Positions 42,766 to 64,000 of a DNA stretch of 64,000 nucleotides are shown here, in pieces. Every line of letters begins with the position of its first letter. Position 1 is the stretch's first letter. A model generated the notes under the pieces. It was given only the letters and a program-made list of their open reading frames with translations, was not told where the DNA came from and did not search any database. The position numbers and the translations under genes were made by a program. Source of the DNA: a virus (taxonomy: Duplodnaviria; Caudoviricetes); the IMG/VR virus record IMGVR_UViG_2930248008_000005, positions 1 to 64,000 of that record; one strand, 5' to 3'.

Positions 42766-43143
42766 ATGCGCGCTGACATCCTCAAGCCGGGCCTGGTAAT
42801 CGACGGCGTCCGGATTCGGTCCCGGGTTCCGTTCGTGCAGAACCGGGCCAAGATGATCCGCGTGGTCATGGAAGACAGGACCACGCGCACCTTTCTGGCC
42901 TCCGCCGAAGTGACGGTCGGTGGGCCGCGTCAGGAGTGGTTCCCGGCCGGTCCGGTCCGGGAGAAGGATCACCGCAGCCCGCAGCCGAACCGGAAGCCTC
43001 GCGCGTCCGACGGCCGGTGGGAGGGCGAGTCGGGCGGGTTCCACGTGACCATGGTCAGCCGGATCTCCGCGTACGACCTGACCGGGCGGCAGCTTGCCCG
43101 GTCCGCGCAGGGTCCGTCCGGTCGCCGCTACAGCAGGCGCTGA
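42766..43143 (+). CDS. Hypothetical protein, first gene of the array
   Basis: AAGGGG RBS; its stop is the start of the first repeat. Confidence 0.7.
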   Translation: MRADILKPGLVIDGVRIRSRVPFVQNRAKMIRVVMEDRTTRTFLASAEVTVGGPRQEWFPAGPVREKDHRSPQPNRKPRASDGRWEGESGGFHVTMVSRISAYDLTGRQLARSAQGPSGRRYSRR

Positions 43144-43230
43144 CCCTCCGTGCACCCCTGATGGTGTGCCGGCCCGCTCGCGGTCCGGTCGCCGTCACCT
43201 GCTGCACGGCAGGAGAATCGAGGGATCATC

Positions 43231-43623
43231 ATGCGCGGAATCGGTCAGCACATGCTTCCGGCGGCGACTCAGCCGGAGCCGGCCGACAACACGAGCATGT
43301 ACGTCTACGCCCAGGTGGAGGAGTGGCAGCGGAGCTGCCTGCCCGTACACCCGGAGATCGCCCGCGAGATCGCGGCGTGGTGGCACGCCCCCGCGCCGCA
43401 CTACGCCGGCCTGACGGCGTTCGCCAGCACCGGGACCCTACTCCAGCGCGAGTGGGAGCCGGAGGACGAGCCGACCCGGGTCGAGCGCGAGCGGCCCGTG
43501 ATCCTGGACGAGATCGACCGGGAGATCGGGACGGAGGACATGTACCGGCCGGAGATCACGCCGCTGTGGGCGCTGCGCCACTACGTGCAGAACGCCTGCC
43601 GCGCCGCCGGGTGGGCGTACTGA
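43231..43623 (+). CDS. Array gene, hypothetical
   Basis: Fills the space exactly between two family A repeats. Confidence 0.8.
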   Translation: MRGIGQHMLPAATQPEPADNTSMYVYAQVEEWQRSCLPVHPEIAREIAAWWHAPAPHYAGLTAFASTGTLLQREWEPEDEPTRVERERPVILDEIDREIGTEDMYRPEITPLWALRHYVQNACRAAGWAY

Positions 43624-43730
43624 CCGTGTGCTGACGGTGGGGCACCGTGCCCCGGTCGCGAACGATGCGGCCGGCCGGACCGGTGCCACCGCCACCTGCC
43701 GCACGGGCAGGAGACTGGCGAGGTGAAAAC

Positions 43731-44099
43731 ATGGGCGCTCGGACCATCACCGAGGAGACCATCGGCGGCCTGTTCAACGAGGGCAAGCTGACCCCCCTGG
43801 AGTTCGGCCTGCGGTGGGTGGAGGTGCGCCAGTACGGCGACTGCCACCCGTCGGAACTGACCCCCTGCAAGCACGACGACGAGACCAACACGGTCACCGT
43901 GTCGGTCTACCACGTCTACGGGGAGCAGCGGCTCGGCCAGCCCTGGTCGGAGTACACCTGCCCGAACGTCTGGGCTACGGGTGGCGACGTCGAGGGCATC
44001 GGCGGCGAGTACGTGAACGGTGGCACGTTCAGCTACCTGGGCGACGACCGGGAGCTGTGCGACCGGATCTACCGGCGGGCGGCCGAGGTCGCGGACTGA
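43731..44099 (+). CDS. Array gene, hypothetical
   Basis: Between repeats; RBS in repeat. Confidence 0.8.
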   Translation: MGARTITEETIGGLFNEGKLTPLEFGLRWVEVRQYGDCHPSELTPCKHDDETNTVTVSVYHVYGEQRLGQPWSEYTCPNVWATGGDVEGIGGEYVNGGTFSYLGDDRELCDRIYRRAAEVAD

Positions 44100-44178
44100 C
44101 CGTGCGAGTGATGGTGGGAGCCGGGCGCGCCCCGGCTCTCCGCCACCGTCGCATGGCGGAGAAAGCGAGGGACGAGTC

Positions 44179-44547
44179 ATGTCCGTCACGATCAACCTGT
44201 CCGACATCCTCTGCGTCACCTGCGGGCAGTCGCCAGAGGAGGGCGCGCCGCGCAAGATTGGCGAGTGGGACGATGCCGGGCACACCGACAGCGCCCACCA
44301 CCCGGCCTGGTCCCAGCGGTCGTTCCCGGGCAGCATCTGGGCCGCGCACCCGCAGCAGGCGCTGTGGTACGGGGAGGTCGTCGTGGCCAAGCCGGGCGAG
44401 GACACCGACTACTTCTACGGCTACGCGGACTGCGAGTACGAGCCGTCCGTGGACGAGCTGGTGCCAGCCGGGTGGGAGGTCCTGGAGTCCAAGGTCAAGC
44501 CCACCCCGAATAACCCGGCCTGGGAGCCGGAGCCGGAGCAGGACTGA
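44179..44547 (+). CDS. Array gene, acidic hypothetical
   Basis: Between repeats. Confidence 0.8.
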   Translation: MSVTINLSDILCVTCGQSPEEGAPRKIGEWDDAGHTDSAHHPAWSQRSFPGSIWAAHPQQALWYGEVVVAKPGEDTDYFYGYADCEYEPSVDELVPAGWEVLESKVKPTPNNPAWEPEPEQD

Positions 44548-44626
44548 CCGTGCATCGATGGTGGGGCACCGACTGCGCGTCGGTGCCGCCGCCACCCGTG
44601 CATGGCGGGAGGAAGTGAGGGCAATC

Positions 44627-44809
44627 ATGCCCGACGGCAACCTGTACGACGCGCTGAAGGCCATCGAGCGGTGCGACCCGGACGGCGGGGAGCGTCAGCC
44701 CACCGAGGCGGACTATGTCGCACACGAGCGGTGGGCCGTCCAGACGTTCGGGCAGAGCGTCTGGGACACGTACCGGCGGGGCGGCTGGGGCGAACCCAGC
44801 TACGCCTGA
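44627..44809 (+). CDS. Array gene, 60 aa hypothetical
   Basis: Between repeats. Confidence 0.75.
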   Translation: MPDGNLYDALKAIERCDPDGGERQPTEADYVAHERWAVQTFGQSVWDTYRRGGWGEPSYA

Positions 44810-44887
44810 CCGTGCGGGTGATGGTGCGGCATCGGGTGTGCCCGGTGCCGTGCCACCGTCGCATGGCGGAGAGACGAGGTGGAGACC

Positions 44888-45457
44888 ATGGGTGGCAAGC
44901 TGCACGAGAACCCGCACGTCGAGCGGGTGCTGGTCGCGCTGGACACGGCGCGCCGGGAGGCGAACCTGGCGGGTCATCCGTACGACATCGGGTTCACTGG
45001 TGTGGACGAGCCGTACGGGATGATCGAGCGGGCGCTGAAGCGCACGCTGACCCACGCCTTCCCGGACGTGGACGCGGACGCGGTCTACCACGCGCTGATC
45101 GACTCCGGCGAGGACATCGGGTACTGCGTGGACGCGCTGCGCCGGGAGAAGGCGGACCGGGCCAAGCTGCTCGACCCCTACCGGGAGTACGAGCGGCCGG
45201 CGGAGTCCGGGCGCTACGGCGCGCGGATGTGGGAGCTGCCGAACGGGTGGGGCGTGTCCCTGGTGCCGTACGCCCGTCACGACGAGGAAGCGGAGCGGCA
45301 CGCCATCGCGCGGGAGGACTTCGGGATGGCGATCGGGGCGTTCGTAGGCGGCGGGTTCGTGATCGACAACGAGCGGTCGGCGACCATCGCGCGGGTGGGC
45401 GGCCTGGACTTCGTCGAGACCATCCTGTCCGACACGATGGAGCTGCCGCCGCGCTGA
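44888..45457 (+). CDS. Array gene, hypothetical
   Basis: Between repeats. Confidence 0.8.
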   Translation: MGGKLHENPHVERVLVALDTARREANLAGHPYDIGFTGVDEPYGMIERALKRTLTHAFPDVDADAVYHALIDSGEDIGYCVDALRREKADRAKLLDPYREYERPAESGRYGARMWELPNGWGVSLVPYARHDEEAERHAIAREDFGMAIGAFVGGGFVIDNERSATIARVGGLDFVETILSDTMELPPR

Positions 45458-45536
45458 CCGCGTGTGGATGGTGCTGGCCGGGCGAGAGTCCGGCCGGTGC
45501 CACCTGCCGCGCGGGCAGGAGATTGGCGAGGTTGAC

Positions 45537-45962
45537 ATGACCACGACGACGGCCGTCAGGCACTGGCACGTGGCAACGGGCCTGGTGGGCTACGGCCCGG
45601 ACGGGGCGGACGGGTACGGCACGGCGATCGAGCTGACCGACGTGGCGGACCTGATCCGCGACGAGCTGCGGCAGGCTGCCGACTCCGAGGACGAGGGGTC
45701 CCGGAGCGAGGCCGAAGCCGCGGACTTCTCGGAGGCGTGGAAGCTCAAGACGCGCGCCGAGCACCTGTCGATCCTGGCGGAGACGTTCAGCAACGACCGG
45801 GCCAACGCGCCGCTGTACGCCGGAAAGCCGGAGATGTGGGCGGACACGATCGAGACACTGATCCGGCAGCACTTCCCGCTGGACATCAGCGACCGCTCCC
45901 GGTTGTACGTGTGGCCGTGTGCGGAGCCGGGCTGCGAGCACCTGGCCGACCTGGAGCGGTGA
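45537..45962 (+). CDS. Array gene, acidic hypothetical
   Basis: Between repeats. Confidence 0.8.
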   Translation: MTTTTAVRHWHVATGLVGYGPDGADGYGTAIELTDVADLIRDELRQAADSEDEGSRSEAEAADFSEAWKLKTRAEHLSILAETFSNDRANAPLYAGKPEMWADTIETLIRQHFPLDISDRSRLYVWPCAEPGCEHLADLER

Positions 45963-46052
45963 CCTTCGGCGTGCGCTGACGGTGCCGGCCGGACCGACGC
46001 GGTCCGGCCGGTCGCCGCCCGCTACACGGCGGGAGATTGACGAGGTCACCCG

Positions 46053-46433
46053 GTGAACATCGCCGAGACGAGGGAAGAGATCCGCGCGCAGGTCGCGGAG
46101 CACCTGACCATGTGGGCGGGCAAGTGCATGTCGATCGAGGTCGGGGGGCTGTCCCTCGAACTCGCGCCGAGGGTTGGCGGACACATCGAGATCAGCCGCT
46201 TCGTGGTGCCGCGCGCCATGCGCGGCGAGGGGGTCGGCACGGCCGTCATGTGGTCCGTGGCGGCCTGGGCGGACCGGATGGGGTACACCCTGACCCTGAC
46301 GCCGTCGAAGGGCTTCGGCGCGACCTCCGTGGCGCGCCTGGAGAAGTTCTACGGGCGGCACGGGTTCATCAGGAACCGGGGCCGGTACGCGGATCTCACG
46401 ATCAGTGAGGCCATGCGCCGCGTGCCGCGCTGA
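46053..46433 (+). CDS. GNAT-family acetyltransferase
   Basis: VVPRAMRGEGVGTAVM acetyl-CoA motif; LEKFYGRHGF. Confidence 0.82.
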   Translation: MNIAETREEIRAQVAEHLTMWAGKCMSIEVGGLSLELAPRVGGHIEISRFVVPRAMRGEGVGTAVMWSVAAWADRMGYTLTLTPSKGFGATSVARLEKFYGRHGFIRNRGRYADLTISEAMRRVPR

Positions 46434-46512
46434 CCGTGCGCACCTGGTGCGGGCCGGGCGGAAGTCCGGCCCGTGCCACCTGCCGCGCGGCAGGAGATTG
46501 GCGAAGATCATC

Positions 46513-46878
46513 ATGTGTGAGCAGGACATCGTCGACGCCTTCAACAAGGTCGCGGACAATTACCCAGGCGGGGAGCTGTACCGGCGGCTGACCGAGGCGT
46601 CGCGCAGGGCCGTGCTGGAGGGCATGGCCACCGGCTTGACGCTGGACGACTACCGGAAGGCGAAGGAGGGGCGCGGCGACCTCCGGGAGTACGCCGACGT
46701 GGTTGGCATCTACGTCCGGGACGAGCTGCGCGAGTACATCGACGAGGTGCTGCCAGCCAACGCGCTGCGGGACATCCTGTTGAAGCTGCTCGACCTGGAT
46801 GACCGGAGCGTGTCGCTGGCGCTCGGGCAGCACTACCTGCCGGACCCCGACGACATCGACGCCGGGGCGCTGGTCTGA
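46513..46878 (+). CDS. Array gene, acidic helical hypothetical
   Basis: Between repeats. Confidence 0.8.
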   Translation: MCEQDIVDAFNKVADNYPGGELYRRLTEASRRAVLEGMATGLTLDDYRKAKEGRGDLREYADVVGIYVRDELREYIDEVLPANALRDILLKLLDLDDRSVSLALGQHYLPDPDDIDAGALV

Positions 46879-46959
46879 CCGTGCGCACCTGGCGCGGGCC
46901 GGGCTATCGTCCGGCCCGTCGCCACCTGCCGCGCGGGCAGGGATTGACGAGGGAGGGCC

Positions 46960-47091
46960 ATGTTTCCAGGAGCGTATGCCTCGGTGGAACGCAACGAGGC
47001 TGGGGAGCCGATCGGGTGGGACTACCCGTCCTACGACGAGCCATACGACCCGGACGACTACCTACCGCAGGACGACGAGGACGAGGACTGA
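46960..47091 (+). CDS. Array gene, 43 aa very acidic peptide (absent from the ORF track)
   Basis: MFPGAYASVERNEAGEPIGWDYPSYDEPYDPDDYLPQDDEDED, exactly between two repeats. Confidence 0.7.
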   Translation: MFPGAYASVERNEAGEPIGWDYPSYDEPYDPDDYLPQDDEDED

Positions 47092-47168
47092 CCGTGCGCC
47101 GATGATCCTGGCCGGGCTGCTGTCCGGCCGGGGTCACCGCTGCATGGCGGAGAGAGTGAGGAACGGAC

Positions 47169-47735
47169 ATGCACATCACGTCGCGTGACTTGACGAACCT
47201 GATCGAGGACGTGAGCCGTGGGAAGCTGACGCCGGCCGAGGGGCATCGGGGGTCGAGCTGGGCGTACCGCGAGGTGATCGACCTGGCGAACTCGGTCCTG
47301 ACGGGCGCGCCGATCGGTGCGGTCGTCATCGACTACGAGCGACGGCACCTGATCGACGGGCGCGAGCGACTGATGACGCTCGCCGCCATGTTCCTGCCGG
47401 CCGACGAGCGCCCGGCAATGCCCGTGGACGGCAGCGCGCCGCACCTGGTGGTGCGCGGGCTCGCCGAGGGTGACGGGTTCGAGGTGCTCATGGTGCGGGA
47501 GGAAGACCGGGAGCCGGCCGACCTGCCGCTATCCTGCCTGCTGCGCACGAGGCGGTTCCTCGCGTGGGAGCGGGCCGTAGACGGCGCGCACCCCGAGCAG
47601 GCGACAGGCATCAAGCGGCGCGGCGGGCGGCTCGCGCAGCGCCTGCACACGGCCAAGGTGGCCGTGATCGAGCTGGACGCCGAGGTGAGCCCGGACCGGG
47701 TCGCGCGGTTGGTGAACCGGCACCGGATCGGCTGA
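47169..47735 (+). CDS. DUF262/GmrS (ParB-Srx fold)-like protein, divergent
   Basis: W......LANSVLTGAPIG...LIDGRERLMTL resembles DSI..G.PIG / IDGQQRLTT. Confidence 0.7.
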   Translation: MHITSRDLTNLIEDVSRGKLTPAEGHRGSSWAYREVIDLANSVLTGAPIGAVVIDYERRHLIDGRERLMTLAAMFLPADERPAMPVDGSAPHLVVRGLAEGDGFEVLMVREEDREPADLPLSCLLRTRRFLAWERAVDGAHPEQATGIKRRGGRLAQRLHTAKVAVIELDAEVSPDRVARLVNRHRIG

Positions 47736-47812
47736 CCGTGCGCTGATGGTGCTCGCCCGGCTTCGGCCGGGCGGGTGCCACCGCCGCACGGCGGAGGAAG
47801 TGAGGCGCTGAG

Positions 47813-48169
47813 ATGGCGCGGATTACCGACGAGATGGTCAGCGAGATGAACGACCGGATCGCGCAGGCCCCGACGACCGCGCAGGCGTTCCGGCTTGCGA
47901 TGGGCGTCAGCGACAGGATGCTGTGGCTGCTGCTCGACCTGAACCACATCAACCAGGACGAGGTCGGGTTGGGCAGGGGTGGGCGCGAGGCACTCGCGGT
48001 GGAGGCGCACGGCTGGCACCTGTACTACCGGGACGACGACACGCCGGCTGACGGGTACGGTCCGTGCGAGCTGGGCGGGTTCGAGGCGCACAGCCTGCGG
48101 CCGTGGGAGTGCCGGGGATGCAAGCGGCGCCCCATTGACCACCGGCGGGTGCCGGTGGCCGTGCGCTGA
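47813..48169 (+). CDS. Array gene, hypothetical with Cys/His C-terminus
   Basis: Between repeats; ends at the internal TGA of the repeat. Confidence 0.75.
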   Translation: MARITDEMVSEMNDRIAQAPTTAQAFRLAMGVSDRMLWLLLDLNHINQDEVGLGRGGREALAVEAHGWHLYYRDDDTPADGYGPCELGGFEAHSLRPWECRGCKRRPIDHRRVPVAVR

Positions 48170-48235
48170 TGATCCTGGCCGGGCGCGAGTCCGGCCGGGG
48201 TCACCGCTGCATGGCGGAGGAAGTGAGGGCTGACC

Positions 48236-48526
48236 ATGCGGTACGTGATGGTGACCGCCACCGCTCTGGCAGCGATGCTGCCGGAGCAATACGAGCAGTG
48301 CAAGAACGACGATCGGTGGACCCTGGTCACCTCGACCGAGGAGACGTGCGCCACGGTCGGGCGCCGCGAGAAGGTGACGCACGTGGTCACCTGGGGTCCG
48401 CCGGACGGCAGGACCAGAGAGGGGTGCTGCGACGAGTGCGCCGGGTCCTACTCCCGACGGCCAGCGCTGGCCGCGCAGGTGCTCTGCATCTGGGCGGGCT
48501 GGGGCTGCACGCACGCGCAGCTCTAA
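48236..48526 (+). CDS. Array gene, Cys-rich hypothetical
   Basis: Between repeats. Confidence 0.75.
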   Translation: MRYVMVTATALAAMLPEQYEQCKNDDRWTLVTSTEETCATVGRREKVTHVVTWGPPDGRTREGCCDECAGSYSRRPALAAQVLCIWAGWGCTHAQL

Positions 48527-48605
48527 CCGTGTGCTGATAGTGGCGGCCGGGCCGAGGGTCCGGCCGCTGCCACCACCGCACGGGTGGAGAGAGGCAGGGC
48601 GGATC

Positions 48606-49202
48606 ATGCCGCGCACCATCACGACCACGCGCACCGTGTTCAAGTTCGAGGAGTTGAGCGAGGACGCGCAGCAGCGGGCGGTTGAGCGGATCGCCGAGAA
48701 GATGGCGACGACCTGGTGGGACCAGCACGACAACGACGACATCGGCGCGACCATCGTCTACAAGATGGCCGAGAAGCTGCGCACGCGGGGCTGGGACACC
48801 TTCGGGGAGGGAGACTTCCCCGGAATCCCCGGGGTCGAGCTGGTCGAGTGGGACCTGGGGCGCGGGCAGGCGGTCAGCTTCAAGGGAGCGCTGGACCGTG
48901 AGAACGCCCCCGCGCTGCCCTGGGCCGATGGAGTCGAGGCCGTAACCCTCGGCGGCATCCCGGGCTACGGCATCGGCCAGTCCGTCTACGTCGAGACAGA
49001 CGGCGAGGCCGAGACCGACGAGGAGGTGGCGCGGGTCGGCGCGGCGGCGGAGGCGATGAAGAGCGCCGTCGAGGATGCCATCCACGCCGCCTGGCAGGCA
49101 GGCAAGGAGCAGGAGGAGTGGAAGGGCGGCGAGGAGCGCGCCCGCGACTGGATCGAGGCGAACGAGCCCGAGTTCGACGAGTCAGGCAACCTCGACCACT
49201 GA
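48606..49202 (+). CDS. Array gene, acidic phage protein (FEELSEDAQQRA...NEPEFDESG family)
   Basis: Between repeats; recurrent phage early-protein motifs. Confidence 0.8.
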   Translation: MPRTITTTRTVFKFEELSEDAQQRAVERIAEKMATTWWDQHDNDDIGATIVYKMAEKLRTRGWDTFGEGDFPGIPGVELVEWDLGRGQAVSFKGALDRENAPALPWADGVEAVTLGGIPGYGIGQSVYVETDGEAETDEEVARVGAAAEAMKSAVEDAIHAAWQAGKEQEEWKGGEERARDWIEANEPEFDESGNLDH

Positions 49203-49282
49203 CCGTGCGCTGACGGTGGCCGCCGGGCCGATGGTCCGGCGGCTGCCACCTCCGCACGGGAGGGGAAAGCAGGGGTAGGCAC

Positions 49283-49612: not shown

Positions 49613-49692
49613 CCGCGCGCTGATGGTGGTGCACCGACCCCGGGTCGGTGCGCTGCCACCACCGCACGGGTGGAGAGAGGCAGGGCCGACCA

Positions 49693-57500: not shown

Positions 57501-57578
57501 ACCGTACGGGAGATGGTGCCGGCCGGGTGACGCCCGGCCGGTCGCCACCGCCGCACGGGCGGAGGAAGTGAGGCGGAG

Positions 57579-57992: not shown

Positions 57993-58073
57993 TCGTGCGG
58001 GTGATGGTGGTGCGCCGGGCTGCGGCTCGGCGCGCTCGCCACCGTGGCACGACGGAGGAATGGAGGGCGGAGC

Positions 58074-58310
58074 GTGGCGGAGAGGTTCGGGCCGCTGAAT
58101 GCGGCTCAGGAGCGAACGCTGGAGCATTACGAGGCGCTCGGGAGCGTGCAGACGTGGTACGCCGGCCGAGTGCGGGATGACGACTCGGTGGAGGTCGTGG
58201 GTCTGGGCGAGGACTTCATCTGGGCGCTGGTCATCGAGCACGACGGCGAGGTGGCCACCTACGAGGCGCACATCGATCCAAAAACCTGGCAGACCGGCAT
58301 CACCTGCTGA
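58074..58310 (+). CDS. Array gene, hypothetical
   Basis: Between repeats. Confidence 0.75.
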   Translation: MAERFGPLNAAQERTLEHYEALGSVQTWYAGRVRDDDSVEVVGLGEDFIWALVIEHDGEVATYEAHIDPKTWQTGITC

Positions 58311-58391
58311 CCGTGTGCTGACGGTGCGGCATCGGGCGAAGGTCCGGTGCGGCGCCGCCCGCCGCACGGACGGGAGGAAGCGAGGAGTCTG

Positions 58392-58859
58392 ATGGAGATG
58401 TACACGGTCGTCGGGGTGTGGCTGAACAATGCGCCGCTCGCGGTCGCCTCGCTGGGCCGCCCGACCCGCACCGACTGGGCCGGCGGCCTGACCGATGCCT
58501 TCCCCAGTGAGTTTCCGCAGGGATCGTGGGTGGAGCTGGTCCTTGCCGACTCGCACGATGCGGCGCAGCGGCGGGCCGAGGAGCTGATGCGGGCGAACGA
58601 CGAGAGCGGCGACGACGGCCAGGAGGGCGACGCGGGCGACGACGAGGGTGACGAGGACGGCCACTCCGCTGGCGACGGCTGCGGCATCTACGACACGGGC
58701 TATTGGGTCGAGACCGATGACGGCGGCTGTGCGGTCGAGGACCTGGAGGTGGGCGACGTCTTCGAGGACCGCGCTTACCCGGGTGACCGCTGGATCGCCA
58801 GCGAGGTCGTGGTCGTGGGCGACGACGTGCACGTTGACGTCGAGCGAGCCGACGACTGA
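58392..58859 (+). CDS. Array gene, very acidic hypothetical
   Basis: Between repeats. Confidence 0.8.
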   Translation: MEMYTVVGVWLNNAPLAVASLGRPTRTDWAGGLTDAFPSEFPQGSWVELVLADSHDAAQRRAEELMRANDESGDDGQEGDAGDDEGDEDGHSAGDGCGIYDTGYWVETDDGGCAVEDLEVGDVFEDRAYPGDRWIASEVVVVGDDVHVDVERADD

Positions 58860-58946
58860 TCCACCGCGCGCTGACGGTGACGGCCGGGCTACGAGCCCGG
58901 CCGGTCGCCGCCCGCCGCGCGGCGGGAGAAGGTGAGGATGGGATCG

Positions 58947-59330
58947 ATGGCGGTTCCGAGTGCGGATGAGCTGGACCGGATGTCGGACGACGAGCTGTTG
59001 GCGGCATTGAGGGCCTACCAGGACGCATACGACCGGCGGACGGAGAGCAAGTTGCTGCGGGTCGTCACAGAACAACTGGCGGCCTCCGGCGAGCTGGAGG
59101 CCGACGAGGAGCCGATCAAGGTCCTGTTCGACCCCTACAACTACCCCAACGGCTGGTACTACAAGGAGCGCAGCGCCCGGGTCTACCTCAAGGGCGATGA
59201 GGAGCCGTTCCTGTTCGACTTCGAGGGCGATGAGGTCAGCGGCCTGCTCGGCACGCTGAGCTACGAGGCCGGGGAGAAAACGGAATTGGTCGTCAACCTG
59301 GTTGACGGCACGGTCGACCACCTGGGATGA
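58947..59330 (+). CDS. Array gene, acidic hypothetical
   Basis: Between repeats. Confidence 0.8.
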   Translation: MAVPSADELDRMSDDELLAALRAYQDAYDRRTESKLLRVVTEQLAASGELEADEEPIKVLFDPYNYPNGWYYKERSARVYLKGDEEPFLFDFEGDEVSGLLGTLSYEAGEKTELVVNLVDGTVDHLG

Positions 59331-59411
59331 CCGCGCACTGACGGTGGCCGCCGGGCTTCGGGTCCGGCGGCTCGCCGCCTGCCGCGCGGCAGGAGAAAGG
59401 AGCGCCGAAGG

Positions 59412-59645
59412 ATGGCGCAGGCAAGCACGATCGAGTACGCGATCAGCCGGGACGGCGGCGAGACCTTCACGGTCCTGGAAGCGGGGGTGCCGTCGGAGCG
59501 GTTCACTCCGATCGTCGAACGGATCACCACGAACCGGAACACCCAGCCCGAGCTGAACAACGACGCCCTGCTGATCCGCGACCTCGACTCTCGGACCGTC
59601 TGGCGCCTGCGGGCCGAGGGAGCCGCACTGCCCGCCGCTTCGTGA
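59412..59645 (+). CDS. Array gene, hypothetical
   Basis: Between repeats; ends at the internal TGA. Confidence 0.75.
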   Translation: MAQASTIEYAISRDGGETFTVLEAGVPSERFTPIVERITTNRNTQPELNNDALLIRDLDSRTVWRLRAEGAALPAAS

Positions 59646-59710
59646 TGGTGGGGCACCGGCCGCCGCCGGTGCCCTCGCCACCTCCGAGCGGAGGAGAGAG
59701 TGAGGACGAC

Positions 59711-60118
59711 ATGGGAGCCTTGTCCGACCTGGAGATCGTCCTGCGGGGCCTGCGGTGCCTCCAGCCGGAAGAACTGGCCGACCTGGCCCCGATGGCCGGC
59801 ACGGGTCGCCCGAGCGGGCCGGAGACGCCCGGGGCGCACTACCTGGCGAGCCTGCGCGACGTGCTGGCCGACAAGATCGAGAGAGACGGCGGTGCGCCGG
59901 ATCCCGAGCTGGTGCCGGCGACGGTCAGCGTCTGGGACGTGGTTCCGGATGGGCGCACCGCCTGGGACACCTTCCTCGACCTGGAGGCGTTCCACACCGA
60001 CCACGCGCGCAAGCACCACCTGACGACAGACGGCGTGCGCATCGTGCTCGAACTGATCGGGTGCGACTTCTGGCGGGAACTGCTCACCGCCCACGTGCCG
60101 GAGCGGTTCTACCTCTGA
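59711..60118 (+). CDS. Array gene, hypothetical
   Basis: Between a family A and a family B repeat. Confidence 0.8.
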   Translation: MGALSDLEIVLRGLRCLQPEELADLAPMAGTGRPSGPETPGAHYLASLRDVLADKIERDGGAPDPELVPATVSVWDVVPDGRTAWDTFLDLEAFHTDHARKHHLTTDGVRIVLELIGCDFWRELLTAHVPERFYL

Positions 60119-60194
60119 CCTGACCGCTTCCGCCGCGCCTCGAACTGCCGGGGCGCGTGCGGTGGCCGCCAGGGCCAAGATGGAGGAGATGAAC

Positions 60195-60494
60195 GTGAAG
60201 CTGACGTTCGAGTGGGACGTGGCAGAACAGCACAAGCTGGAGATCGAGCTGGACGACCTGTTCGACTGGCTGGTCCGGGAGGGCGTGCTCGACAAGAACG
60301 ACCCGCGAACCCTGGAGACGCTCCAGGAGGTCTACAACGACACATGCGAAATCGAGAAGTTGCTGTGGATCTCGCAGGGCAAGGACACCGTCGTCCGTCG
60401 CGGCGTGAGAGGACTGACCTCCCACCCGTTCGAGACGCCGGAGCCCCGGGCGGAGCACCCGCACGACCACGGCGACTACAGCGACGTGCAGTGA
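60195..60494 (+). CDS. Array gene, acidic hypothetical; start 60189 or 60195
   Basis: Between family B repeats. Confidence 0.75.
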   Translation: MKLTFEWDVAEQHKLEIELDDLFDWLVREGVLDKNDPRTLETLQEVYNDTCEIEKLLWISQGKDTVVRRGVRGLTSHPFETPEPRAEHPHDHGDYSDVQ

Positions 60495-60568
60495 TCGCCT
60501 GACCGCTTCCGTCCGGCCCGCCTGACGCGGGCCGGGCAGTGGCCGCCAGGCCAGGACGAGGAGGAGAG

Positions 60569-60745
60569 ATGGACGAGCAGCAGCCGGAGGAGCCCGCCAA
60601 GCTGGACCACCAGCAGCTCATGAACATGCTGCGTGACAAGGCCGCAGAGCACGGCTGGTCGGTCGACTGGAGCTTCAAGGGCGACCAGTACGGCAACGGC
60701 GACCAGGAATACCAGGTCTGGTTCACGCCGACGAGCAGCACCTGA
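60569..60745 (+). CDS. Array gene, 58 aa hypothetical
   Basis: Between family B repeats. Confidence 0.75.
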   Translation: MDEQQPEEPAKLDHQQLMNMLRDKAAEHGWSVDWSFKGDQYGNGDQEYQVWFTPTSST

Positions 60746-60820
60746 CCGCTTCCGCCGCGCCCCGGGAACCGTGCGCCCCGGGGCGTGCGCGGTGGCCGCC
60801 AGGGCCAAGATGGAGGAGAA

Positions 60821-61141
60821 GTGGATCCGAAGACGAACGGCTCGACCGTGCGGCAGTTTCTCGACCTGTCGACGAGCCACCTGCCCGAGAAGGTCTGCGA
60901 CGGTCTCGGCGGCTACCCCGGCGTGACGGCGTACGAGCACACGGCGTACGGCTGGTTCGTGTGGGCGCCGAGTGACCCGAACCTCGACATCTACGAGAAG
61001 GTGCCCGAGGAAATCAAGGCGATCTGGCGGCATGCGCGCAAGCTCGGCTGCGAGTACGTGCTGCTGGAGCGGGACGCTGATGACGACCCCAACCTGCCGA
61101 CGTGGAACTGGAGTACGGGCGAGCGCCACGACCCTGCCTGA
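60821..61141 (+). CDS. DUF5983-like protein
   Basis: FLDLSTSHL...YGWFVW...P..I..I...AR..GCEYVLL..DA motif. Confidence 0.7.
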   Translation: MDPKTNGSTVRQFLDLSTSHLPEKVCDGLGGYPGVTAYEHTAYGWFVWAPSDPNLDIYEKVPEEIKAIWRHARKLGCEYVLLERDADDDPNLPTWNWSTGERHDPA

Positions 61142-61540: not shown

Positions 61541-61971
61541 CGCGCGAGGCGGTGCGGGAGATGCTACGCAACAACCCGCGCCGCTTCGGTTACGCACTGC
61601 GCAGGGCGCTCTGGACCCACGAGGCGATGGCGTTGCTACCCGGCCCGTACGGCTGGAATGACGGCGGCTGCCTGCTGCTGGCCGAAGGGCTGGTTGAGCT
61701 GCTGGGGCGAGAGGCGCGCGTCAGGGCGGTCGTCCGGGGCGGCACGCTGTACGCCCAGCACTTCGTGGTGCAGGAGGGGCGCTGGCACCTGGACGCGGAC
61801 GGGGCATGCCTGGAGGGCACCCTGCTGCGGCGCTGGGAAGAGCAGGAGTTGGTGCCGTCACCTCGGACGGCGCCGTTGCGCGCCGTCGACATCAGCGCAG
61901 GCACCCCTCGTAGCGCTGAGGTGTCCGCCTCCGTGCGGGACTTCCTCTGTGCGCGCCTGCCTTCGGCCTGA
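61537..61971 (+). CDS. Array gene with C-H-D triad-like motif (GGC..LA / QH.VV / LDADG), papain/transglutaminase-like candidate
   Basis: ATGA overlap; Cys, His, Asp in the expected order. Confidence 0.55.
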   Translation: MTREAVREMLRNNPRRFGYALRRALWTHEAMALLPGPYGWNDGGCLLLAEGLVELLGREARVRAVVRGGTLYAQHFVVQEGRWHLDADGACLEGTLLRRWEEQELVPSPRTAPLRAVDISAGTPRSAEVSASVRDFLCARLPSA

Positions 61972-62042
61972 CCGCTTCGGTCGGACTCGGGGCGACCCGA
62001 GTCCGGCTGTGGCCGCCAGGGCCAGGAAAGTGAGGCGAGGTA

Positions 62043-62330
62043 ATGAAGGGCGACAGCAGCCGGTGCGACCTGCCGGTAGGAACCTTCGTGGAGGTGACCG
62101 AGTACGGGGACGGCCAGCGGTACATCGCCGTGATCGTTGGCTACGACCTGGGGCGCAGCAAGTACGAGGTGGGGCACCGATACGCAGGCTGGGGCGAGTG
62201 GAGGTGGCTCGACGGTGGCGCCTGGGTCTTCCCGGGCGAGGTCGAGGAGATCAAAACCAAGGAGGTCAGCTTCGAGTCTGAAAACGTCGACGAGAAGCCG
62301 GGCGTCGTCACCTACACCATCCCCGCCTGA
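62043..62330 (+). CDS. Array gene; frame stays open past the TGA to 62432
   Basis: After a family B repeat; 33 further sense codons end at the TGA of the next repeat. Confidence 0.7.
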   Translation: MKGDSSRCDLPVGTFVEVTEYGDGQRYIAVIVGYDLGRSKYEVGHRYAGWGEWRWLDGGAWVFPGEVEEIKTKEVSFESENVDEKPGVVTYTIPA

Positions 62331-62506
62331 GTGACGGTGAGGTGCGAGCCCGACGCGAGCGACGTGGCACTGCGCACCCGATGGGTGCTCGACGAGGGAA
62401 CGACGTGGGACTCCTTCGACCACAACACCTGACCGCTTCGGGCGGACTCGGGGCGCACCCCCGAGCCCGCCAGTGGCCGCCAGGGCCGAGAGGGAGGACG
62501 CGAGCG

Positions 62507-63412
62507 ATGACGGAGGACAAGCGGCCCGTAACTGCCGATAGCACCCCGGCCGAGATTGACCAACGGCTGCTGGGGCTGGCGTGGGACAAGGCTCACCACC
62601 AGGCGATCCTGGGCGGCCGGAACGTCAGCGAGGAGCAGCGGGCAGCTGCGGAAGAGGCGTTGGCGCGGATCGCCGACGAGGAGAATCCGCTGGAGGCGGC
62701 ATATGAGCGCCGGCGGTGGACTCGGTGGTGGTGGGTGCCGAACGGGCACCTACACCGGGAGGGTGAGTGCTCGACGCTGTTCGAGAGCACCGAGCGGAAC
62801 CTGACCCCGCGGGCTAGCGGACTGAGCGACGAGGAGTTGGTCGGCAAGTTCGGGTGGCACGTCTGCACCGCCTGCTACCCCGACGCCCCGAAGGACCCCA
62901 ACTTCCGCACCCCGGGCACGTACGCGGCCGAGCAGGCAGCCGCCGACGGGTGGTGCCTGAACAAGGTGCCGGCGAGGATGAGCCGCAGATGGCACGGCTA
63001 CGGCAGTTGCGGGGAGTGTGACGCGGGCGGGGTGCCGGTGTCCAGCCGGGGCAACCTGCGCAAGCACAAGCACCAGCGGATGGCCGATGACGCCGCCCGC
63101 GAGGCGCGGATCAACGACCCGAAGCTGATTGGCGCCGCCACTGGCGAGCCGCTGAAGGTGGACGGCTCGGAGATCAGAACCCGCCGCACGGCCGAGATCG
63201 AGTGGGTGCGGCACATGGAGAACGGCGATGAGCGCGGTTGGGCCAGTAACCGCGCTTGGCAGGCCGAGCAGCGAGAGTTCGCTCGACAGATCGCGGAGGC
63301 GCTGGCCGCCAAGGACGGGGTGAGCGTCGAGGAGATCGAGGCTCGACTCCAGCCGAAGCTGGAAGCCAAGATCCGCAAGTTCGAGCGCGACCGGGAAACG
63401 GCCGGACGCTGA
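62507..63412 (+). CDS. Array gene, Cys/His-rich hypothetical (GHLH...CSTL...CTACYPDAP)
   Basis: Between a family B and a family A repeat. Confidence 0.8.
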   Translation: MTEDKRPVTADSTPAEIDQRLLGLAWDKAHHQAILGGRNVSEEQRAAAEEALARIADEENPLEAAYERRRWTRWWWVPNGHLHREGECSTLFESTERNLTPRASGLSDEELVGKFGWHVCTACYPDAPKDPNFRTPGTYAAEQAAADGWCLNKVPARMSRRWHGYGSCGECDAGGVPVSSRGNLRKHKHQRMADDAAREARINDPKLIGAATGEPLKVDGSEIRTRRTAEIEWVRHMENGDERGWASNRAWQAEQREFARQIAEALAAKDGVSVEEIEARLQPKLEAKIRKFERDRETAGR

Positions 63413-63491
63413 CCGTACGGGTGATGGTGTGGCATCGGGCGCGAGCCCGGTGCCGCGCCACCTCCGTGCGGAGGAGAGAGTGAGGTCAGGG

Positions 63492-64000
63492 ATGACCTAC
63501 GCGGTGATTGAGCGACTCCCGGATGGTCGGGAGTGCATCCTGGGCGTCGGCTTCACGGACGCGCCGGGATACCCCGACGACAGTCAGCTGTGGGCGCCGA
63601 AGCGGTGGGCGGTGCTGCTGACGCACGAGGACGTCCTGGTCGACGGGGTCTGGCGGGAGGTGGCACCGGCCGAGCCGACGGACCATGGCGTGGTGGGCGG
63701 CGACGGGCAGCTCAGTACGGCCTGGGGCCGGAGGTTCGCCCGCCGAATGCCCGACGGGTTGTGGGCGGTGATCGACCACTTCTTCTACGTCGAGACCGAC
63801 GTGATGCACGAGAGCGGCGAGCGGTGGCTGACCGAGGGGATCTGGCGCACCGCCTGCCGGGACCTGCGCGACGTGGGTGGCACCGAGGAGTGGGCCGACA
63901 CCCCCGAGTACAAGGGCCTGGACACGGTCGGCGAGGTCACCGACCGGGACGCCTACGGCCGGTGCGACCTGCTGACCGGCGAGTACGACTGGAACGGGGA
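63492..64000 (+). CDS. Array gene, truncated by the window end
   Basis: ATG after the repeat at 63410; frame open to the end. Confidence 0.75.
   Translation, partial: MTYAVIERLPDGRECILGVGFTDAPGYPDDSQLWAPKRWAVLLTHEDVLVDGVWREVAPAEPTDHGVVGGDGQLSTAWGRRFARRMPDGLWAVIDHFFYVETDVMHESGERWLTEGIWRTACRDLRDVGGTEEWADTPEYKGLDTVGEVTDRDAYGRCDLLTGEYDWNG

What the first reader, a model, noticed from the sequence alone, without database searches (positions are those of the whole stretch)
43141..64000. More than 20 kb cassette-like array: ~46 small unrelated genes, almost each delimited by a conserved structured stop-to-RBS element
Seen: 43 of the 45 gene junctions from 43141 onward hold an ~80-110 nt element (37 family A, 6 family B). 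It usually begins with the upstream stop (TGACCGTGCG) and ends with the downstream RBS (AGYGAGG). The genes are co-oriented, 43-301 aa, show no obvious similarity to each other, and no promoter motif is visible in the element. The array continues past the window. Established analogues: integron attC arrays, T4-type PeSL shuffling cassettes, T7 early-region RNase III sites, mycobacteriophage start-associated sequences. None of these matches this sequence; it lacks the RYYYAAC/GTTRRRY attC cores. Inference: an undescribed modular gene-array system in which the element is the unit of expression (processing or translational control), the unit of recombination, or both.
Basis: partly seen in the sequence, partly recalled or inferred. 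Interest (0 to 1): 0.93.

Follow-up and report, generated by a model that had tools for sequence, protein, structure and literature searches.

The report
Structured stop-to-RBS RNA joints between prophage genes
A prophage-like contig carries about 70 copies of a folded 80-base spacer that sits between almost every one of its small unknown genes, apparently to process or insulate each gene's message, and gene swaps between related prophages end at these spacers.

Summary
Covariance models find 37 family-A and 6 family-B elements in the window, all on the + strand. They run from the upstream stop codon to the downstream ribosome-binding site. The array continues to about 89.3 kb of the 95-kb contig, giving 39 A and 30 B copies.

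Both families share one design. Helix P1 pairs the bases at or just after the stop codon with the loop region of a small 3' hairpin, P4. Between them lie a short helix (P2) and a variable GC hairpin (P3). P1 and P4 exclude each other, yet both covary. G·U pairs place the fold on the sense strand, so it is an RNA structure.

The elements carry no sigma-70-type promoter and no U-tract. Tandem promoters and an rrn-leader-like motif lie upstream of the array.

A Micromonospora maritima prophage has the same A/B array (30 + 30 copies). Only 36 of 86 called genes are shared. Gene order differs in at least three places, and homology blocks end inside the elements.

Best reading: intercistronic mRNA processing and insulation elements that double as homologous-recombination joints. 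No cleavage or RNA ends were observed.

Described analogues exist: Cluster M CR3/CR4 repeats with stem-loops, Cluster K SAS/ESAS, and T4 PeSLs. I therefore rate this a new variant of a known kind.

The parts
41420..41830 (+). Head of the array: four TTGACA-bearing units at a 91-92 bp period, then a motif like the host rrn leader. Context only, not part of the repeats.
   Evidence: Sequence read. The motif TTGTTTGTTGAGAACTCAA differs at 2 of 19 positions from a sequence 126-144 nt upstream of 16S rRNA in the related host genome G002.
41831..42765 (+). Leader of about 900 nt with no convincing ORF, lying between the promoters and the first array gene.
   Evidence: sequence; no high-GC3 frame. 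Not studied further.
43141..64000 (+). Window part of the gene array. The whole array runs from about 42.8 to 89.3 kb of the contig.
43141..43233 (+). Family A element
   Evidence: R1 52.9 bits
43621..43733 (+). Family A element with a long P3
   Evidence: R1 52.6 bits
44097..44181 (+). Family A element
   Evidence: R1 72.5 bits
44545..44629 (+). Family A element
   Evidence: R1 67.8 bits
44807..44890 (+). Family A element
   Evidence: R1 62.6 bits
45455..45539 (+). Family A element
   Evidence: R1 70.0 bits
45960..46055 (+). Family A element
   Evidence: R1 56.9 bits
46431..46515 (+). Family A element
   Evidence: R1 71.6 bits
46876..46962 (+). Family A element
   Evidence: R1 70.0 bits
47089..47171 (+). 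Family A element
   Evidence: R1 73.5 bits
47733..47815 (+). Family A element, closest to the consensus
   Evidence: R1 79.1 bits
48156..48238 (+). Family A element; the upstream gene stops at the second TGA of the 5' box
   Evidence: R1 73.1 bits
48524..48608 (+). Family A element; the stop lies at the second TGA
   Evidence: R1 72.1 bits
49200..49285 (+). Family A element
   Evidence: R1 76.1 bits
49610..49695 (+). Family A element
   Evidence: R1 69.6 bits
49936..50022 (+). Family A element with a compensatory P1 variant (CCACGC with GCGTGG)
   Evidence: R1 63.9 bits
50731..50815 (+). Family A element
   Evidence: R1 80.6 bits
51068..51149 (+). Family A element
   Evidence: R1 66.5 bits
51564..51650 (+). 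Family A element
   Evidence: R1 74.3 bits
51945..52032 (+). Family A element
   Evidence: R1 69.6 bits
52219..52300 (+). Family A element
   Evidence: R1 46.7 bits
52775..52859 (+). Family A element
   Evidence: R1 75.9 bits
53325..53412 (+). Family A element
   Evidence: R1 70.6 bits
53691..53773 (+). Family A element
   Evidence: R1 64.5 bits
54296..54381 (+). Family A element
   Evidence: R1 68.4 bits
54776..54866 (+). Family A variant. P1 reads CGCTCG with CGAGCG; no P4; longer spacer before the RBS.
   Evidence: R1 51.4 bits
55323..55413 (+). Family A variant without P4
   Evidence: R1 59.9 bits
55684..55774 (+). Family A element with a compensatory P1 variant (CCGCTCG with CGAGCGG)
   Evidence: R1 62.6 bits
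56588..56669 (+). Family A element
   Evidence: R1 68.5 bits
56988..57068 (+). Family A element
   Evidence: R1 65.5 bits
57498..57581 (+). Family A element
   Evidence: R1 65.5 bits
57990..58076 (+). Family A element
   Evidence: R1 63.8 bits
58308..58394 (+). Family A element
   Evidence: R1 72.8 bits
58857..58949 (+). Family A element
   Evidence: R1 72.5 bits
59328..59414 (+). Family A element
   Evidence: R1 80.7 bits
59629..59713 (+). Family A element
   Evidence: R1 56.0 bits
60119..60196 (+). Family B element
   Evidence: R2 70.2 bits
60498..60573 (+). Family B element
   Evidence: R2 65.7 bits
60741..60826 (+). Family B element
   Evidence: R2 67.1 bits
61137..61216 (+). Family B element
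   Evidence: R2 77.2 bits
61967..62043 (+). Family B element
   Evidence: R2 75.9 bits
62428..62507 (+). Family B element
   Evidence: R2 65.3 bits
63410..63494 (+). Family A element; family A resumes here
   Evidence: R1 64.3 bits
611..1777 (+). Tyrosine recombinase at the contig's left end. It is the likely prophage integrase and is not part of the array system.
   Evidence: Pfam Phage_integrase, E 3.4e-24. The integron-integrase model TIGR02249 scores 51.2 bits against a cutoff of 265.

Best explanation
The elements are intercistronic RNA modules inside very long polycistronic transcripts of a temperate actinobacterial (Micromonospora-type) prophage.

Structure. Each element spans exactly the gap between one gene's stop codon and the next gene's RBS. 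Co-transcriptionally it can fold into a long interrupted hairpin:
- P1, 7 bp, starting 1 nt after the stop codon;
- an internal loop of about 4 x 4 nt;
- P2, 5 bp, with a nearly invariant U·G pair;
- P3, a hypervariable 8-13 bp GC hairpin.
I propose this hairpin is a recognition and cleavage site for a double-strand-specific endonuclease (host RNase III type), or at least a 3' stability hairpin for the upstream cistron.

Refolding. P1 can be lost in two ways: cleavage on the 3' side of the internal loop, or a terminating ribosome covering the P1 5' strand. The freed 3' strand then refolds into the small hairpin P4, which sits directly 5' of the RBS. There it would cap and insulate the downstream cistron.

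Overall effect. About 70 unrelated, mostly ORFan genes would each receive the same context-independent stop, spacer and translation start.

Recombination. Because the spacers are repeated 30-39 times per family, they also serve as patches of homology. General recombination at these patches deletes, inserts, swaps and reorders single-gene units, which produces the cassette-like mosaic.

Shown: the elements, their positions, both helices with covariation, sense-strand polarity, absence of promoter and U-tract, the upstream promoter/rrn-like leader, a second genome with the same array, and mosaic gene content with block ends in the elements.

Inferred: transcription as one unit, cleavage, the identity of the nuclease, the protective role of P4, and recombination at the elements as the cause of the mosaic.
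For: Structure:
- On 69 distinct family-A copies from two genomes, 93.1% of cells in P1-P3 form standard pairs, against 82.5% in shuffles. There are 143 cells changed on both sides, against 57. In all five measures 0 of 500 shuffles reach the observed value. Slid controls give 24-47% paired.
- Cognate versus non-cognate duplex energies: P1 -10.2 vs -7.8 kcal/mol, P3 -17.4 vs -11.5, P4 -6.3 vs -4.0 (0 of 5000 permutations each).
- P4 forms in 67 of 69 copies and covaries independently in the second genome (-7.0 vs -4.6, 0 of 5000).
- P1 and P4 share nucleotides, so they cannot coexist.
- Family B, with a different sequence, has the same logic. Its 5' hexamer overlaps the stop codon and covaries with the loop and 3' side of the 3' hairpin (-6.55 vs -5.36, 0 of 5000).

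Polarity:
- My tally's per-pair table gives 161 G·U cells, including a U·G pair kept in 66 of 69 copies. These would be A·C mismatches on the other strand.
- Minus-strand scores are at most 29 bits, against 46-81 bits on the + strand.

Not promoters or terminators:
- 0 sigma-70-like sites, and no + strand hairpin-plus-T-run inside the array.
- 68 of 69 elements have at most 4 T in any 8-nt window. By contrast, the unit boundary at 66034-66073 has a 13-bp hairpin followed by TTTGCTCT and then a promoter-like motif.

Long transcript:
- Tandem TTGACA units plus an rrn-leader-like motif head the array. A similar head exists in the related prophage.

Recombination:
- 36 reciprocal-best gene pairs out of 86 genes called in each array.
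- Order changes: G016/G017 swapped, G022 moved, and the 68871 and 69658 blocks swapped.
- 35 of 52 blastn block ends lie in an element (within 10 nt). Random placement gives a mean of 7.9 and a maximum of 21 in 2000 trials.
- Breakpoints fall at different places within elements.
Against: - No RNA data exist. No listed sequencing run holding this DNA is RNA, so no transcript, cleavage site or RNA end has been seen.
- RNase III specificity in this host is unknown.
- None of the 86 array proteins has a Pfam RNase or RNA-binding domain.
- Predicted accessibility of the SD barely changes between the two conformations (0.52 vs 0.47 mean unpaired probability). So P4 has no computed effect on initiation.
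- Block ends at gene boundaries are expected in any phage mosaic. BLAST also extends alignments into similar repeats, so the 35 of 52 figure overstates precision.
- Only two genomes carry the A/B array, so the comparative evidence is n = 2.
- Alignments fitted to the covariance model lean towards its structure.
Confidence: 0.45

Rival explanations
1. Ribosome-sensing translational switch or shared translational operator. A ribosome terminating on the upstream stop codon covers the P1 5' strand, which in family B includes the stop codon itself. P4 then forms. The P1/P4 state, or a protein that binds one of them, sets initiation at the next RBS. That would couple, or globally shut off, translation across a whole class of genes (class A, class B).
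For: The P1 5' strand starts 1 nt after the stop in family A and overlaps the stop in family B. Blocking the first 16 nt switches the predicted MFE fold from P1-P2-P3 to P2/P3 plus P4 in most copies. Conserved unpaired bases and an invariant U·G pair suggest recognition by a protein. P4 ends about 18-20 nt before the start codon, at the edge of a 30S footprint (sequences).
Against: The SD and start codon are not sequestered in either state: 0.52 vs 0.47 and 0.57 vs 0.62 mean unpaired probability. Gene pairs that need coupling use ordinary overlaps or 3-nt gaps without an element (56245/56249 and 61537/61540). No candidate RNA-binding protein was found.
Confidence: 0.2
2. U-less transcription terminators or pause sites, read through only by RNA polymerase modified at the rrn-like leader. 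Any stray transcription in the lysogen would then die within one gene.
For: An rrn-leader-like motif lies behind tandem promoters at the head of the array. Strong GC hairpins follow every gene. Terminators without poly-U tails have been reported from the early region of actinophage phiC31; I saw that paper only as a title cited by others (listing), not its text.
Against: 68 of 69 elements have at most 4 T in any 8-nt window, and no + strand terminator-like site lies in the array. The same contig uses a hairpin plus T-run at the 66.03-kb unit boundary. The abstract start of PMC3993855 (listing) poses the question of non-canonical terminators, and its title states that mycobacterial RNA polymerase requires a U-tract. 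Termination does not explain why P4 and the P1/P4 exclusion covary.
Confidence: 0.12
3. Selfish or neutral repeats (MITE-like) or pure DNA-level recombination scaffolds, with no role in expression.
For: High copy number. Two stop codons in two frames within the family-A 5' box. Local clustering of subtypes and mosaic elements. Family-B-like copies in unrelated mobile elements in metagenomes.
Against: Compensatory changes maintain four helices on the sense strand only, with abundant G·U pairs. Every copy is in one orientation and in exact register with a stop codon and an RBS/start. None lies in the 40 kb of structural genes. No terminal inverted repeats or target duplications were noticed, but this was not tested systematically.
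Confidence: 0.1
4. Integron-like site-specific cassette system in which the element is an attC analogue folded as single-stranded DNA.
For: The layout resembles attC: paired outer boxes, paired inner boxes, unpaired bases between them, and a variable centre. Gene content differs cassette by cassette.
Against: There is no integron integrase: TIGR02249 scores 51 bits against a 265-bit cutoff, and Xer-type models score higher. No recombinase domain was found among the 86 array proteins. Breakpoints fall at different positions in different elements. The RBS and start codon are in fixed register, which points to RNA. Box sequences are conserved, unlike attC.
Confidence: 0.03

Closest known systems
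Cluster M mycobacteriophage conserved repeats CR3/CR4 with upstream stem-loops (Pope et al. 2014, J Virol 88:2461). That paper is not held and I did not read it. I saw passages of PMC7953290 and analysed phage Estes myself (MT657341).
   Same: Small co-oriented genes of unknown function are separated by 80-115 nt spacers. A stem-loop starts at or near the stop codon. Then comes a conserved purine-rich, RBS-bearing repeat (exact in 9 of 12 Estes junctions, variant in 2), followed by the start codon 5-9 nt later. Gene insertions come 'with associated copies of CR3' (PMC7953290). When the 5' strand is blocked, several Estes spacers also fold a small 3' hairpin from the lower-stem 3' strand (about 7 of 12, judged by eye).
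   Different: No sequence relationship (R1 finds nothing in the Estes locus; R2 was not run on it). About 12 copies against 69. One repeat type per junction rather than two interleaved families. No covariation analysis of the Cluster M structures is known to me. Different host genus. No rrn-like leader was examined there.
Cluster K mycobacteriophage start-associated sequences (SAS) and extended SAS (PMC3203893, passages read)
   Same: An asymmetric conserved motif lies immediately upstream of start codons, nearly all in one orientation. About half the sites are preceded by imperfect 17-bp inverted repeats with a variable spacer. The authors state that the function is unclear and possibly translational.
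   Different: SAS is a 13-nt motif. ESAS has a single pair of inverted repeats with a 4-13 bp spacer. It is not reported to begin at the upstream stop codon or to have two exclusive helices. The sites are scattered through the genome rather than at nearly every junction of a 46-kb block.
PeSL cassettes of T4-type phages (PMC2839356, abstract read)
   Same: Repeated small regulatory motifs with stem-loops lie between non-essential ORFan genes in hyperplastic regions. Recombination between copies causes insertion, deletion and replacement, that is, modular shuffling.
   Different: PeSLs are a strong sigma-70-like promoter plus a working terminator. Here there is no promoter match and no U-tract. 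The motif carries the RBS instead, so each unit is a cistron rather than a transcription unit.
RNase III processing sites between the early genes of coliphage T7
   Same: Similar-looking interrupted hairpins with an internal loop lie between cistrons of a long early transcript. As I recall, cleavage leaves a 3' hairpin on the upstream mRNA.
   Different: A handful of sites in T7 against 69 here. Cleavage here is only inferred. The P4 refolding module has no counterpart that I know of.
Integron attC sites
   Same: A structure-defined element follows each promoterless gene in a co-oriented array, with paired boxes around a variable centre.
   Different: No IntI. Conserved sequence. Register with the RBS and G·U pairs point to RNA. 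Breakpoints are variable.

Membership tests
Integron gene cassettes / attC | Integron integrase (IntI) next to the array | tested here: not met
   The only recombinase (611-1777) scores 51.2 bits on TIGR02249 (cutoff 265) and 28.2 bits on NF011946 (cutoff 435). Xer-type models score higher. No recombinase domain was found in the 86 array proteins.
Integron gene cassettes / attC | One fixed crossover point in the element, so that each cassette always carries the same part of it | tested here: not met
   At G012 the left break lies between P3 and P4 and the right break lies after the SD. At G014 the 5' box and P3 are kept while P4 differs. Few cases, read by eye.
Integron gene cassettes / attC | Conserved R''/R' core motifs | tested here: not met
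The paired outer boxes read CCGTGCG with CGCACGG (family A) and CCTGAC with GTCAGG or GCCAGG (family B).
PeSL (promoter-early stem-loop) cassettes | Strong sigma-70-type promoter in each copy | tested here: not met
   0 promoter-like sites in 41000-60900 and 0 in 60001-80000.
PeSL (promoter-early stem-loop) cassettes | Stem-loop that works as a terminator | tested here: inconclusive
   The hairpins are strong, but 68 of 69 lack a T-run. Function is not testable here.
PeSL (promoter-early stem-loop) cassettes | Indels, replacements and shuffles between related genomes bounded by the motif | tested here: met
   (35 of 52 block ends in elements; three order changes).
Phage intercistronic RNase III sites (T7 type) | Interrupted hairpin of roughly two helical turns, with an internal loop, between cistrons | tested here: met
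   P1 (7 bp), internal loop, P2 (5 bp), P3 (8-13 bp), all with covariation.
Phage intercistronic RNase III sites (T7 type) | Cleavage by RNase III in vivo or in vitro | not testable with these tools
   No RNA run holds the sequence.
Cluster M CR3/CR4 plus stem-loop spacers | Architecture: stop codon, stem-loop, conserved RBS-bearing repeat, start codon, between small genes | tested here: met
   Compare.
Cluster M CR3/CR4 plus stem-loop spacers | Sequence of the CR repeats | tested here: not met
   The conserved motif in Estes (CACACGGAGAAGGGA) is absent from the A and B consensus. R1 finds nothing in the Estes locus.
Any Rfam family | Score at or above the family's gathering threshold | tested here: not met
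   0 matches over the whole window. At E up to 5 on 46800-50100 only miRNA-precursor-like hairpin matches appear, at 21-34 bits against gathering scores of 46-100.
Canonical intrinsic terminators | GC hairpin followed directly by a U-tract | tested here: not met

The most novel reading that the evidence does not exclude
A general, so far unrecognised class of actinobacterial mobile-element RNA joints. Each is a two-state intercistronic module in which a stop-codon-proximal strand competes with a small pre-RBS hairpin. The module senses ribosome arrival or nuclease cleavage. It converts an rrn-style antiterminated transcript tens of kilobases long into about 70 autonomous, insulated cistrons. 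It also acts as a portable joint through which ORFan genes are traded between prophages and pSAM2-type conjugative elements. Families A and B, and possibly the Cluster M and Cluster K repeats, would be independent versions of one design. That would explain what SAS/ESAS/CR-type repeats are for.
Probability: 0.25. Interest if true: 0.85.

Novelty: new variant of a known kind. Interest (0 to 1): 0.68.

Why it matters
Conserved spacers between small phage genes (SAS/ESAS, CR1-4) have been in print for over a decade without an accepted function. This array offers 69 + 60 copies in two genomes. That is enough covariation to define a secondary structure with two competing helices, and hence a concrete, testable mechanism.

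The related prophage sits in a culture-collection strain (M. maritima JCM 17013). End mapping, RNase III assays and reporter tests are therefore ordinary experiments.

If the elements do process or insulate cistrons, they are natural counterparts of the synthetic insulators used in engineered operons for high-GC hosts. They also show how a phage can maintain, express and turn over a 46-kb store of ORFan genes.

Family-B-like copies beside the transfer gene of pSAM2-type elements hint at exchange between phages and conjugative elements.

Tried and rejected
Known RNA family: rejected. Rfam gave 0 matches at gathering score over the window and only sub-threshold generic hairpin matches on 46800-50100.

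Known phage or plasmid DNA:
- Megablast and blastn of array stretches against INPHARED gave no match.
- A single B element against phages and plasmids gave only partial hairpin-sized matches; 0 records covered 80% or more of the query.

Relatives, searches that found nothing or only chance hits:
- Exact-pattern scans of IMG/VR gave only single, probably chance hits: 3 stretches for the family-A pattern and 15 for the family-B pattern. R1 found nothing convincing in the 3 family-A stretches.
- Streptomyces phage Samy (TerL 61% identical) has tightly packed early genes and no R1 hit in its first 50 of 61 kb.
- Four IMG/VR contigs encoding a 48-49% relative of one array protein have no A or B element. 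One of them has its own unrelated hairpin/T-run/promoter-like repeat.
- R1 in 151 genomes of the genus of G002 matched only G002 itself.
- R2 in a 151-genome phylum sample matched only G002.
- In both genome searches only the 29-31 best first-look candidates per genome were scored, so single copies could be missed.
- The other close TerL relative (G001, 87% identical) gave 0 R1 hits with 150 of about 28,700 candidates scored. Its contig ends 3.9 kb from TerL.

Expression data: no RNA holder was listed for the stretch. One DNA run is listed, possibly the source of this DNA. Read laying was not used, because contigs cannot show RNA ends.

Translational masking: folding with the first 16 nt blocked did not change predicted SD accessibility.

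P3 as a marker of co-inheritance: my junction-matching script was too noisy. Many P3 hairpins look alike, and my gene calls caught only 37 junctions in the relative. I dropped it in favour of the block-end test and reading of individual junctions.

Phage-encoded nuclease or RNA-binding protein: none was seen. Pfam on 86 array proteins gave 17 families, each in one protein. PHROGs on 20 array proteins matched 4 of them, all to families of unknown function.

ORFan status: one array protein (50020-50733) has no relative other than itself among 5.8 billion clusters. I tested only this one.

Papers:
- Pope et al. 2014 (Cluster M) is not held. What I say about CR repeats comes from passages of PMC7953290 and my own reading of Estes.
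- Supplements were not opened. Those of PMC3203893 hold further SAS/ESAS tables that could bear on the comparison.
- Searches for a description of this element found none: 'Streptomyces phage / intergenic / stem-loop / repeat', 'Micromonospora / prophage / intergenic', 'actinobacteriophage / intergenic / conserved repeat / stem-loop'.

Full report
WHAT IS THERE

The window is the first 64 kb of a single 95,389-bp record flagged as viral. Its layout, from GC3-based gene calls:
- a tyrosine recombinase at 611-1777;
- virion genes on the minus strand at about 10-40 kb, including a 1,938-codon frame and a large terminase at 36628-38328;
- a non-coding control region at 40.8-42.8 kb;
- from about 42.8 kb onward, a run of + strand genes reaching the end of the contig.

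One array protein is recorded on a 665,786-bp contig, so the record is a provirus cut out of a bacterial assembly. The terminase is 87-88% identical to prophage terminases in two Micromonospora genomes and 61% identical to Streptomyces phage Samy.

THE REPEATS

Printing the 125 nt after each stop codon shows the element directly.

A covariance model of family A (R1) recovers 39 distinct copies at 46.7-80.7 bits. All are on the + strand, all lie between 43141 and 64613, and 37 are in the window. The best score anywhere else is 29 bits, on the reverse strand of one of the same hairpins.

A model of family B (R2) recovers 30 copies between 60119 and 89349, six of them in the window.

The two junctions without an element are a 3-nt gap (56245/56249) and a 4-nt overlap (61537/61540).

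Elements cover 12.4% of the array. The genes between them have GC3 of 0.85-0.97. They are unrelated to each other: one weak paralogue pair among 86 called genes. Most have no family: 17 Pfam families, each in a single protein. PHROGs matched 4 of 20 proteins tested, all to families of unknown function. The one protein searched against 5.8 billion clusters found only itself.

STRUCTURE

RNAalifold on the 39 copies gives one long interrupted hairpin:
- P1: CCGTGCG, starting one base after the stop codon, pairs with CGCACGG.
- An internal loop follows.
- P2: TGGTG pairs with CGCCA and includes a U·G pair.
- P3: a hypervariable GC hairpin.

On 69 distinct copies from two genomes:
- 93.1% of cells are standard pairs, against 82.5% in shuffles.
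- 15 of 18 pairs show changes on both sides.
- 143 cells changed on both sides, against 57 in shuffles.
- No shuffle in 500 reaches any of the five observed measures.
- Sliding the partners by 1-3 columns drops pairing to 24-47%.

A second helix, P4, is not in that model. It is a 5-6 bp hairpin formed by the bases just 3' of P2 and the bases just before the purine-rich RBS region. Its loop and closing pairs are the 3' strand of P1.

I tested each helix by asking whether a copy's own two strands pair better than strands taken from different copies:

| Helix | Cognate (kcal/mol) | Non-cognate | Permutations reaching observed |
|---|---|---|---|
| P1 | -10.2 | -7.8 | 0 of 5000 |
| P3 | -17.4 | -11.5 | 0 of 5000 |
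| P4 (this contig) | -6.3 | -4.0 | 0 of 5000 |
| P4 (relative) | -7.0 | -4.6 | 0 of 5000 |

P4 forms in 67 of 69 copies. The two that lack it (54776 and 55323) are a sub-variant with a longer spacer.

P1 and P4 share bases, so they exclude each other. With the first 16 nt blocked, as under a terminating ribosome, the predicted fold switches from P1-P2-P3 to P2/P3 plus P4 in most copies.

Family B has a different sequence but the same plan. A 5' hexamer overlaps the stop codon (CC-TGA-C and variants). It covaries with the loop and 3' side of a TGGCC/GGCCA hairpin that precedes the RBS: -6.55 vs -5.36, 0 of 5000. Matched variants include CCTGAC with GTCAGG, CTGGC with GCCAG, TCGGGC with GCCCGG and CCGGTC with GACCGG.

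WHICH STRAND AND WHICH MOLECULE

My tally's per-pair table gives 161 G·U cells. One U·G pair is kept in 66 of 69 copies. On the opposite strand these would be A·C mismatches. Every copy is in register with a stop codon on one side and an RBS and start codon on the other. This points to the mRNA. Top-strand single-stranded DNA is formally possible but has nothing else in its favour.

WHAT THE ELEMENTS ARE NOT

- Not a sigma-70-type promoter: none was found in 41-60.9 kb or 60-80 kb.
- Not a canonical terminator: 68 of 69 elements have at most 4 T in any 8-nt window. The contig does use a 13-bp hairpin followed by a T-run, then a TTGACG...TACCTT promoter-like motif, at 66.03-66.09 kb. The AT-rich motif recurs at 73729 and 90068 and is conserved in the relative. 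The array therefore seems to consist of a few long transcription units.
- Not a known Rfam family.
- Not linked to an integron integrase.

HEAD OF THE ARRAY

At 41420-41760 there are four TTGACA-bearing units at a 91-92 bp period. Then comes TTGTTTGTTGAGAACTCAA. In the related host genome, a sequence differing at 2 of 19 positions lies 126-144 nt upstream of 16S rRNA. A second version sharing the first 14 bases lies just upstream of 23S rRNA.

The relative's prophage has three similar promoter units and a T-rich motif at the same place. This fits, but does not prove, processive antitermination over a very long operon.

A SECOND ARRAY, AND CASSETTE BEHAVIOUR

R1 finds 30 copies and R2 finds 30 copies in one 40-kb stretch of Micromonospora maritima JCM 17013, contig 3. 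It lies next to a syntenic virion module at 70-84% DNA identity. The succession of families is the same in both: an A block, five or six B copies, two or three A copies, then a B block.

Gene content differs sharply:
- 86 genes were called in each array. Forty in this contig have a blastp match, and 36 are reciprocal best hits.
- Between shared anchor genes lie different, unrelated genes, often in similar numbers. For example, three genes separate G002 from G006 on each side, and none of them are homologous.
- Order differs at least three times: G016 and G017 are swapped, the G022 homologue lies ahead of the G012 homologue, and the 68871 and 69658 blocks are swapped.

Of the 52 ends of the 26 blastn blocks of 150 nt or more within the array, 35 lie in an element (within 10 nt). 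Random placement gives a mean of 7.9 and a maximum of 21 in 2000 trials.

Breakpoints are not at one position. At G012 the upstream break lies between P3 and P4, and the downstream break lies after the SD. At G014 the 5' box and P3 are shared while P4 differs. That pattern fits general recombination or gene conversion between repeats, as proposed for PeSLs, rather than a site-specific system.

Caveats: this rests on two genomes only, my gene starts are heuristic, and BLAST extends alignments into similar repeats.

DISTRIBUTION

The elements were not found in other genomes searched:
- R1 in the 150 other genomes of G002's genus: none.
- R2 in a 150-genome sample of the phylum: none.
- Only the top 29-31 candidates per genome were scored in those two searches.
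- Samy, Estes and four IMG/VR relatives: none.

A 23-base-specific family-B pattern did hit 36 metagenome contigs. Of these, 33 have R2 matches, 48 in all, at one to three per locus. In two of them the copies flank an FtsK/SpoIIIE-type gene next to a pSAM2-type RepSA replication gene. Family B is therefore not confined to this phage lineage. It also occurs in integrative conjugative elements.

In this contig, B copies likewise flank a TraB-like gene at 81779-84031.

MECHANISM

The facts to explain are these:
- a long interrupted hairpin rooted at the stop codon;
- a competing small hairpin abutting the RBS;
- conserved unpaired bases and a conserved wobble pair;
- no promoter and no U-tract;
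- the same logic in two unrelated sequence families.

I favour intercistronic processing and insulation. The long hairpin would be cut by, or would block, ribonucleases. A double-strand-specific enzyme cutting at the 3' side of the internal loop would leave P2-P3 on the upstream mRNA. It would also free the downstream strand to fold P4 at its new 5' end, just before the RBS. This makes sense of both helices as successive states.

It remains an inference. No RNA data were available, and no nuclease or RNA-binding protein was identified.

A ribosome-sensing switch or shared translational operator is the main rival. The position of P1 at or over the stop codon is exactly what that model needs. 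However, predicted SD accessibility does not differ between the two states.

HOW NEW

The sequences are new. The kind is not:
- In phage Estes I found 12 spacers of 80-115 nt, each made of a stop codon, a long stem-loop, a conserved RBS-bearing motif and a start codon. Several may have a competing 3' hairpin (by eye, no statistics).
- Cluster K SAS/ESAS are similar in spirit, and their function is stated to be unclear (passages of PMC3203893).
- PeSLs (abstract of PMC2839356) supply the precedent for shuffling.

What this case adds:
- scale (69 copies, nearly every junction of a 46-kb block);
- two interleaved families sharing one design;
- statistical support for two exclusive helices;
- an rrn-like head;
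- a link to conjugative elements;
- a culturable strain in which to test it.

Noticed in passing
window 41420-41830: Four tandem TTGACA-bearing units at a 91-92 bp period. They are followed by a motif differing at 2 of 19 positions from the host-type rrn leader sequence found 126-144 nt upstream of 16S rRNA in G002. The related prophage has three such units and a T-rich motif at the same place.
   Followed up: partly
window 41831-42765: Leader of about 900 nt with lower GC (0.64-0.66) and no high-GC3 frame, between the promoters and the first array gene. No Rfam match.
   Followed up: no
L001 6020-6090, L001 13700-13760, L002 12040-12090 (contig 66.03-66.09, 73.7 and 90.07 kb): A conserved AT-rich motif (CTACCTTGGATGTATTAAATA and variants) preceded by TTGACG/TTGCCT-like hexamers. 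At 66.03 kb it directly follows a 13-bp hairpin plus T-run. These are probably internal terminator/promoter boundaries that split the array into a few units. Two of the three are conserved in the M. maritima prophage.
   Followed up: partly
L001 17332-19125; L002 3779-6028; L001 6198-7412: Conjugative-element-type genes lie inside the array: DUF2637, a TraB/FtsK-like protein (weak matches only: NF041214 44 bits, cutoff 800) and DUF932/TIGR03299. Family-B elements sit on both sides of the TraB-like gene.
   Followed up: partly
L125 5114-6970; L147 4634-6444 (metagenome contigs): Family-B-like elements flank the FtsK/SpoIIIE gene of pSAM2-type integrative conjugative elements (RepSA, E 6e-150 and 4e-130).
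   Followed up: partly
L114 13500-19700 (Mycobacterium phage Estes, minus strand): In several Cluster M spacers, the 3' strand of the lower stem can instead form a small hairpin (GCUG...CAGC type) just before the conserved RBS motif. This resembles the P1/P4 competition seen here.
   Followed up: partly
L116 8430-16950 (IMG/VR contig): An unrelated, lower-GC phage contig has its own repeated hairpin / T-run / TTATCATGTACATGTG motif between genes, which looks PeSL-like.
   Followed up: no
G002:C3:470293-470369 (L159): One family-B match (63.6 bits) lies about 19 kb outside the left end of the region I took to be the M. maritima prophage.
   Followed up: no
window 43141-64000, family A 5' box: The 5' box carries TGA in two reading frames (positions 1-3 and 12-14). 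Five upstream genes end at the second one. The element can therefore terminate genes arriving in two of three frames.
   Followed up: partly
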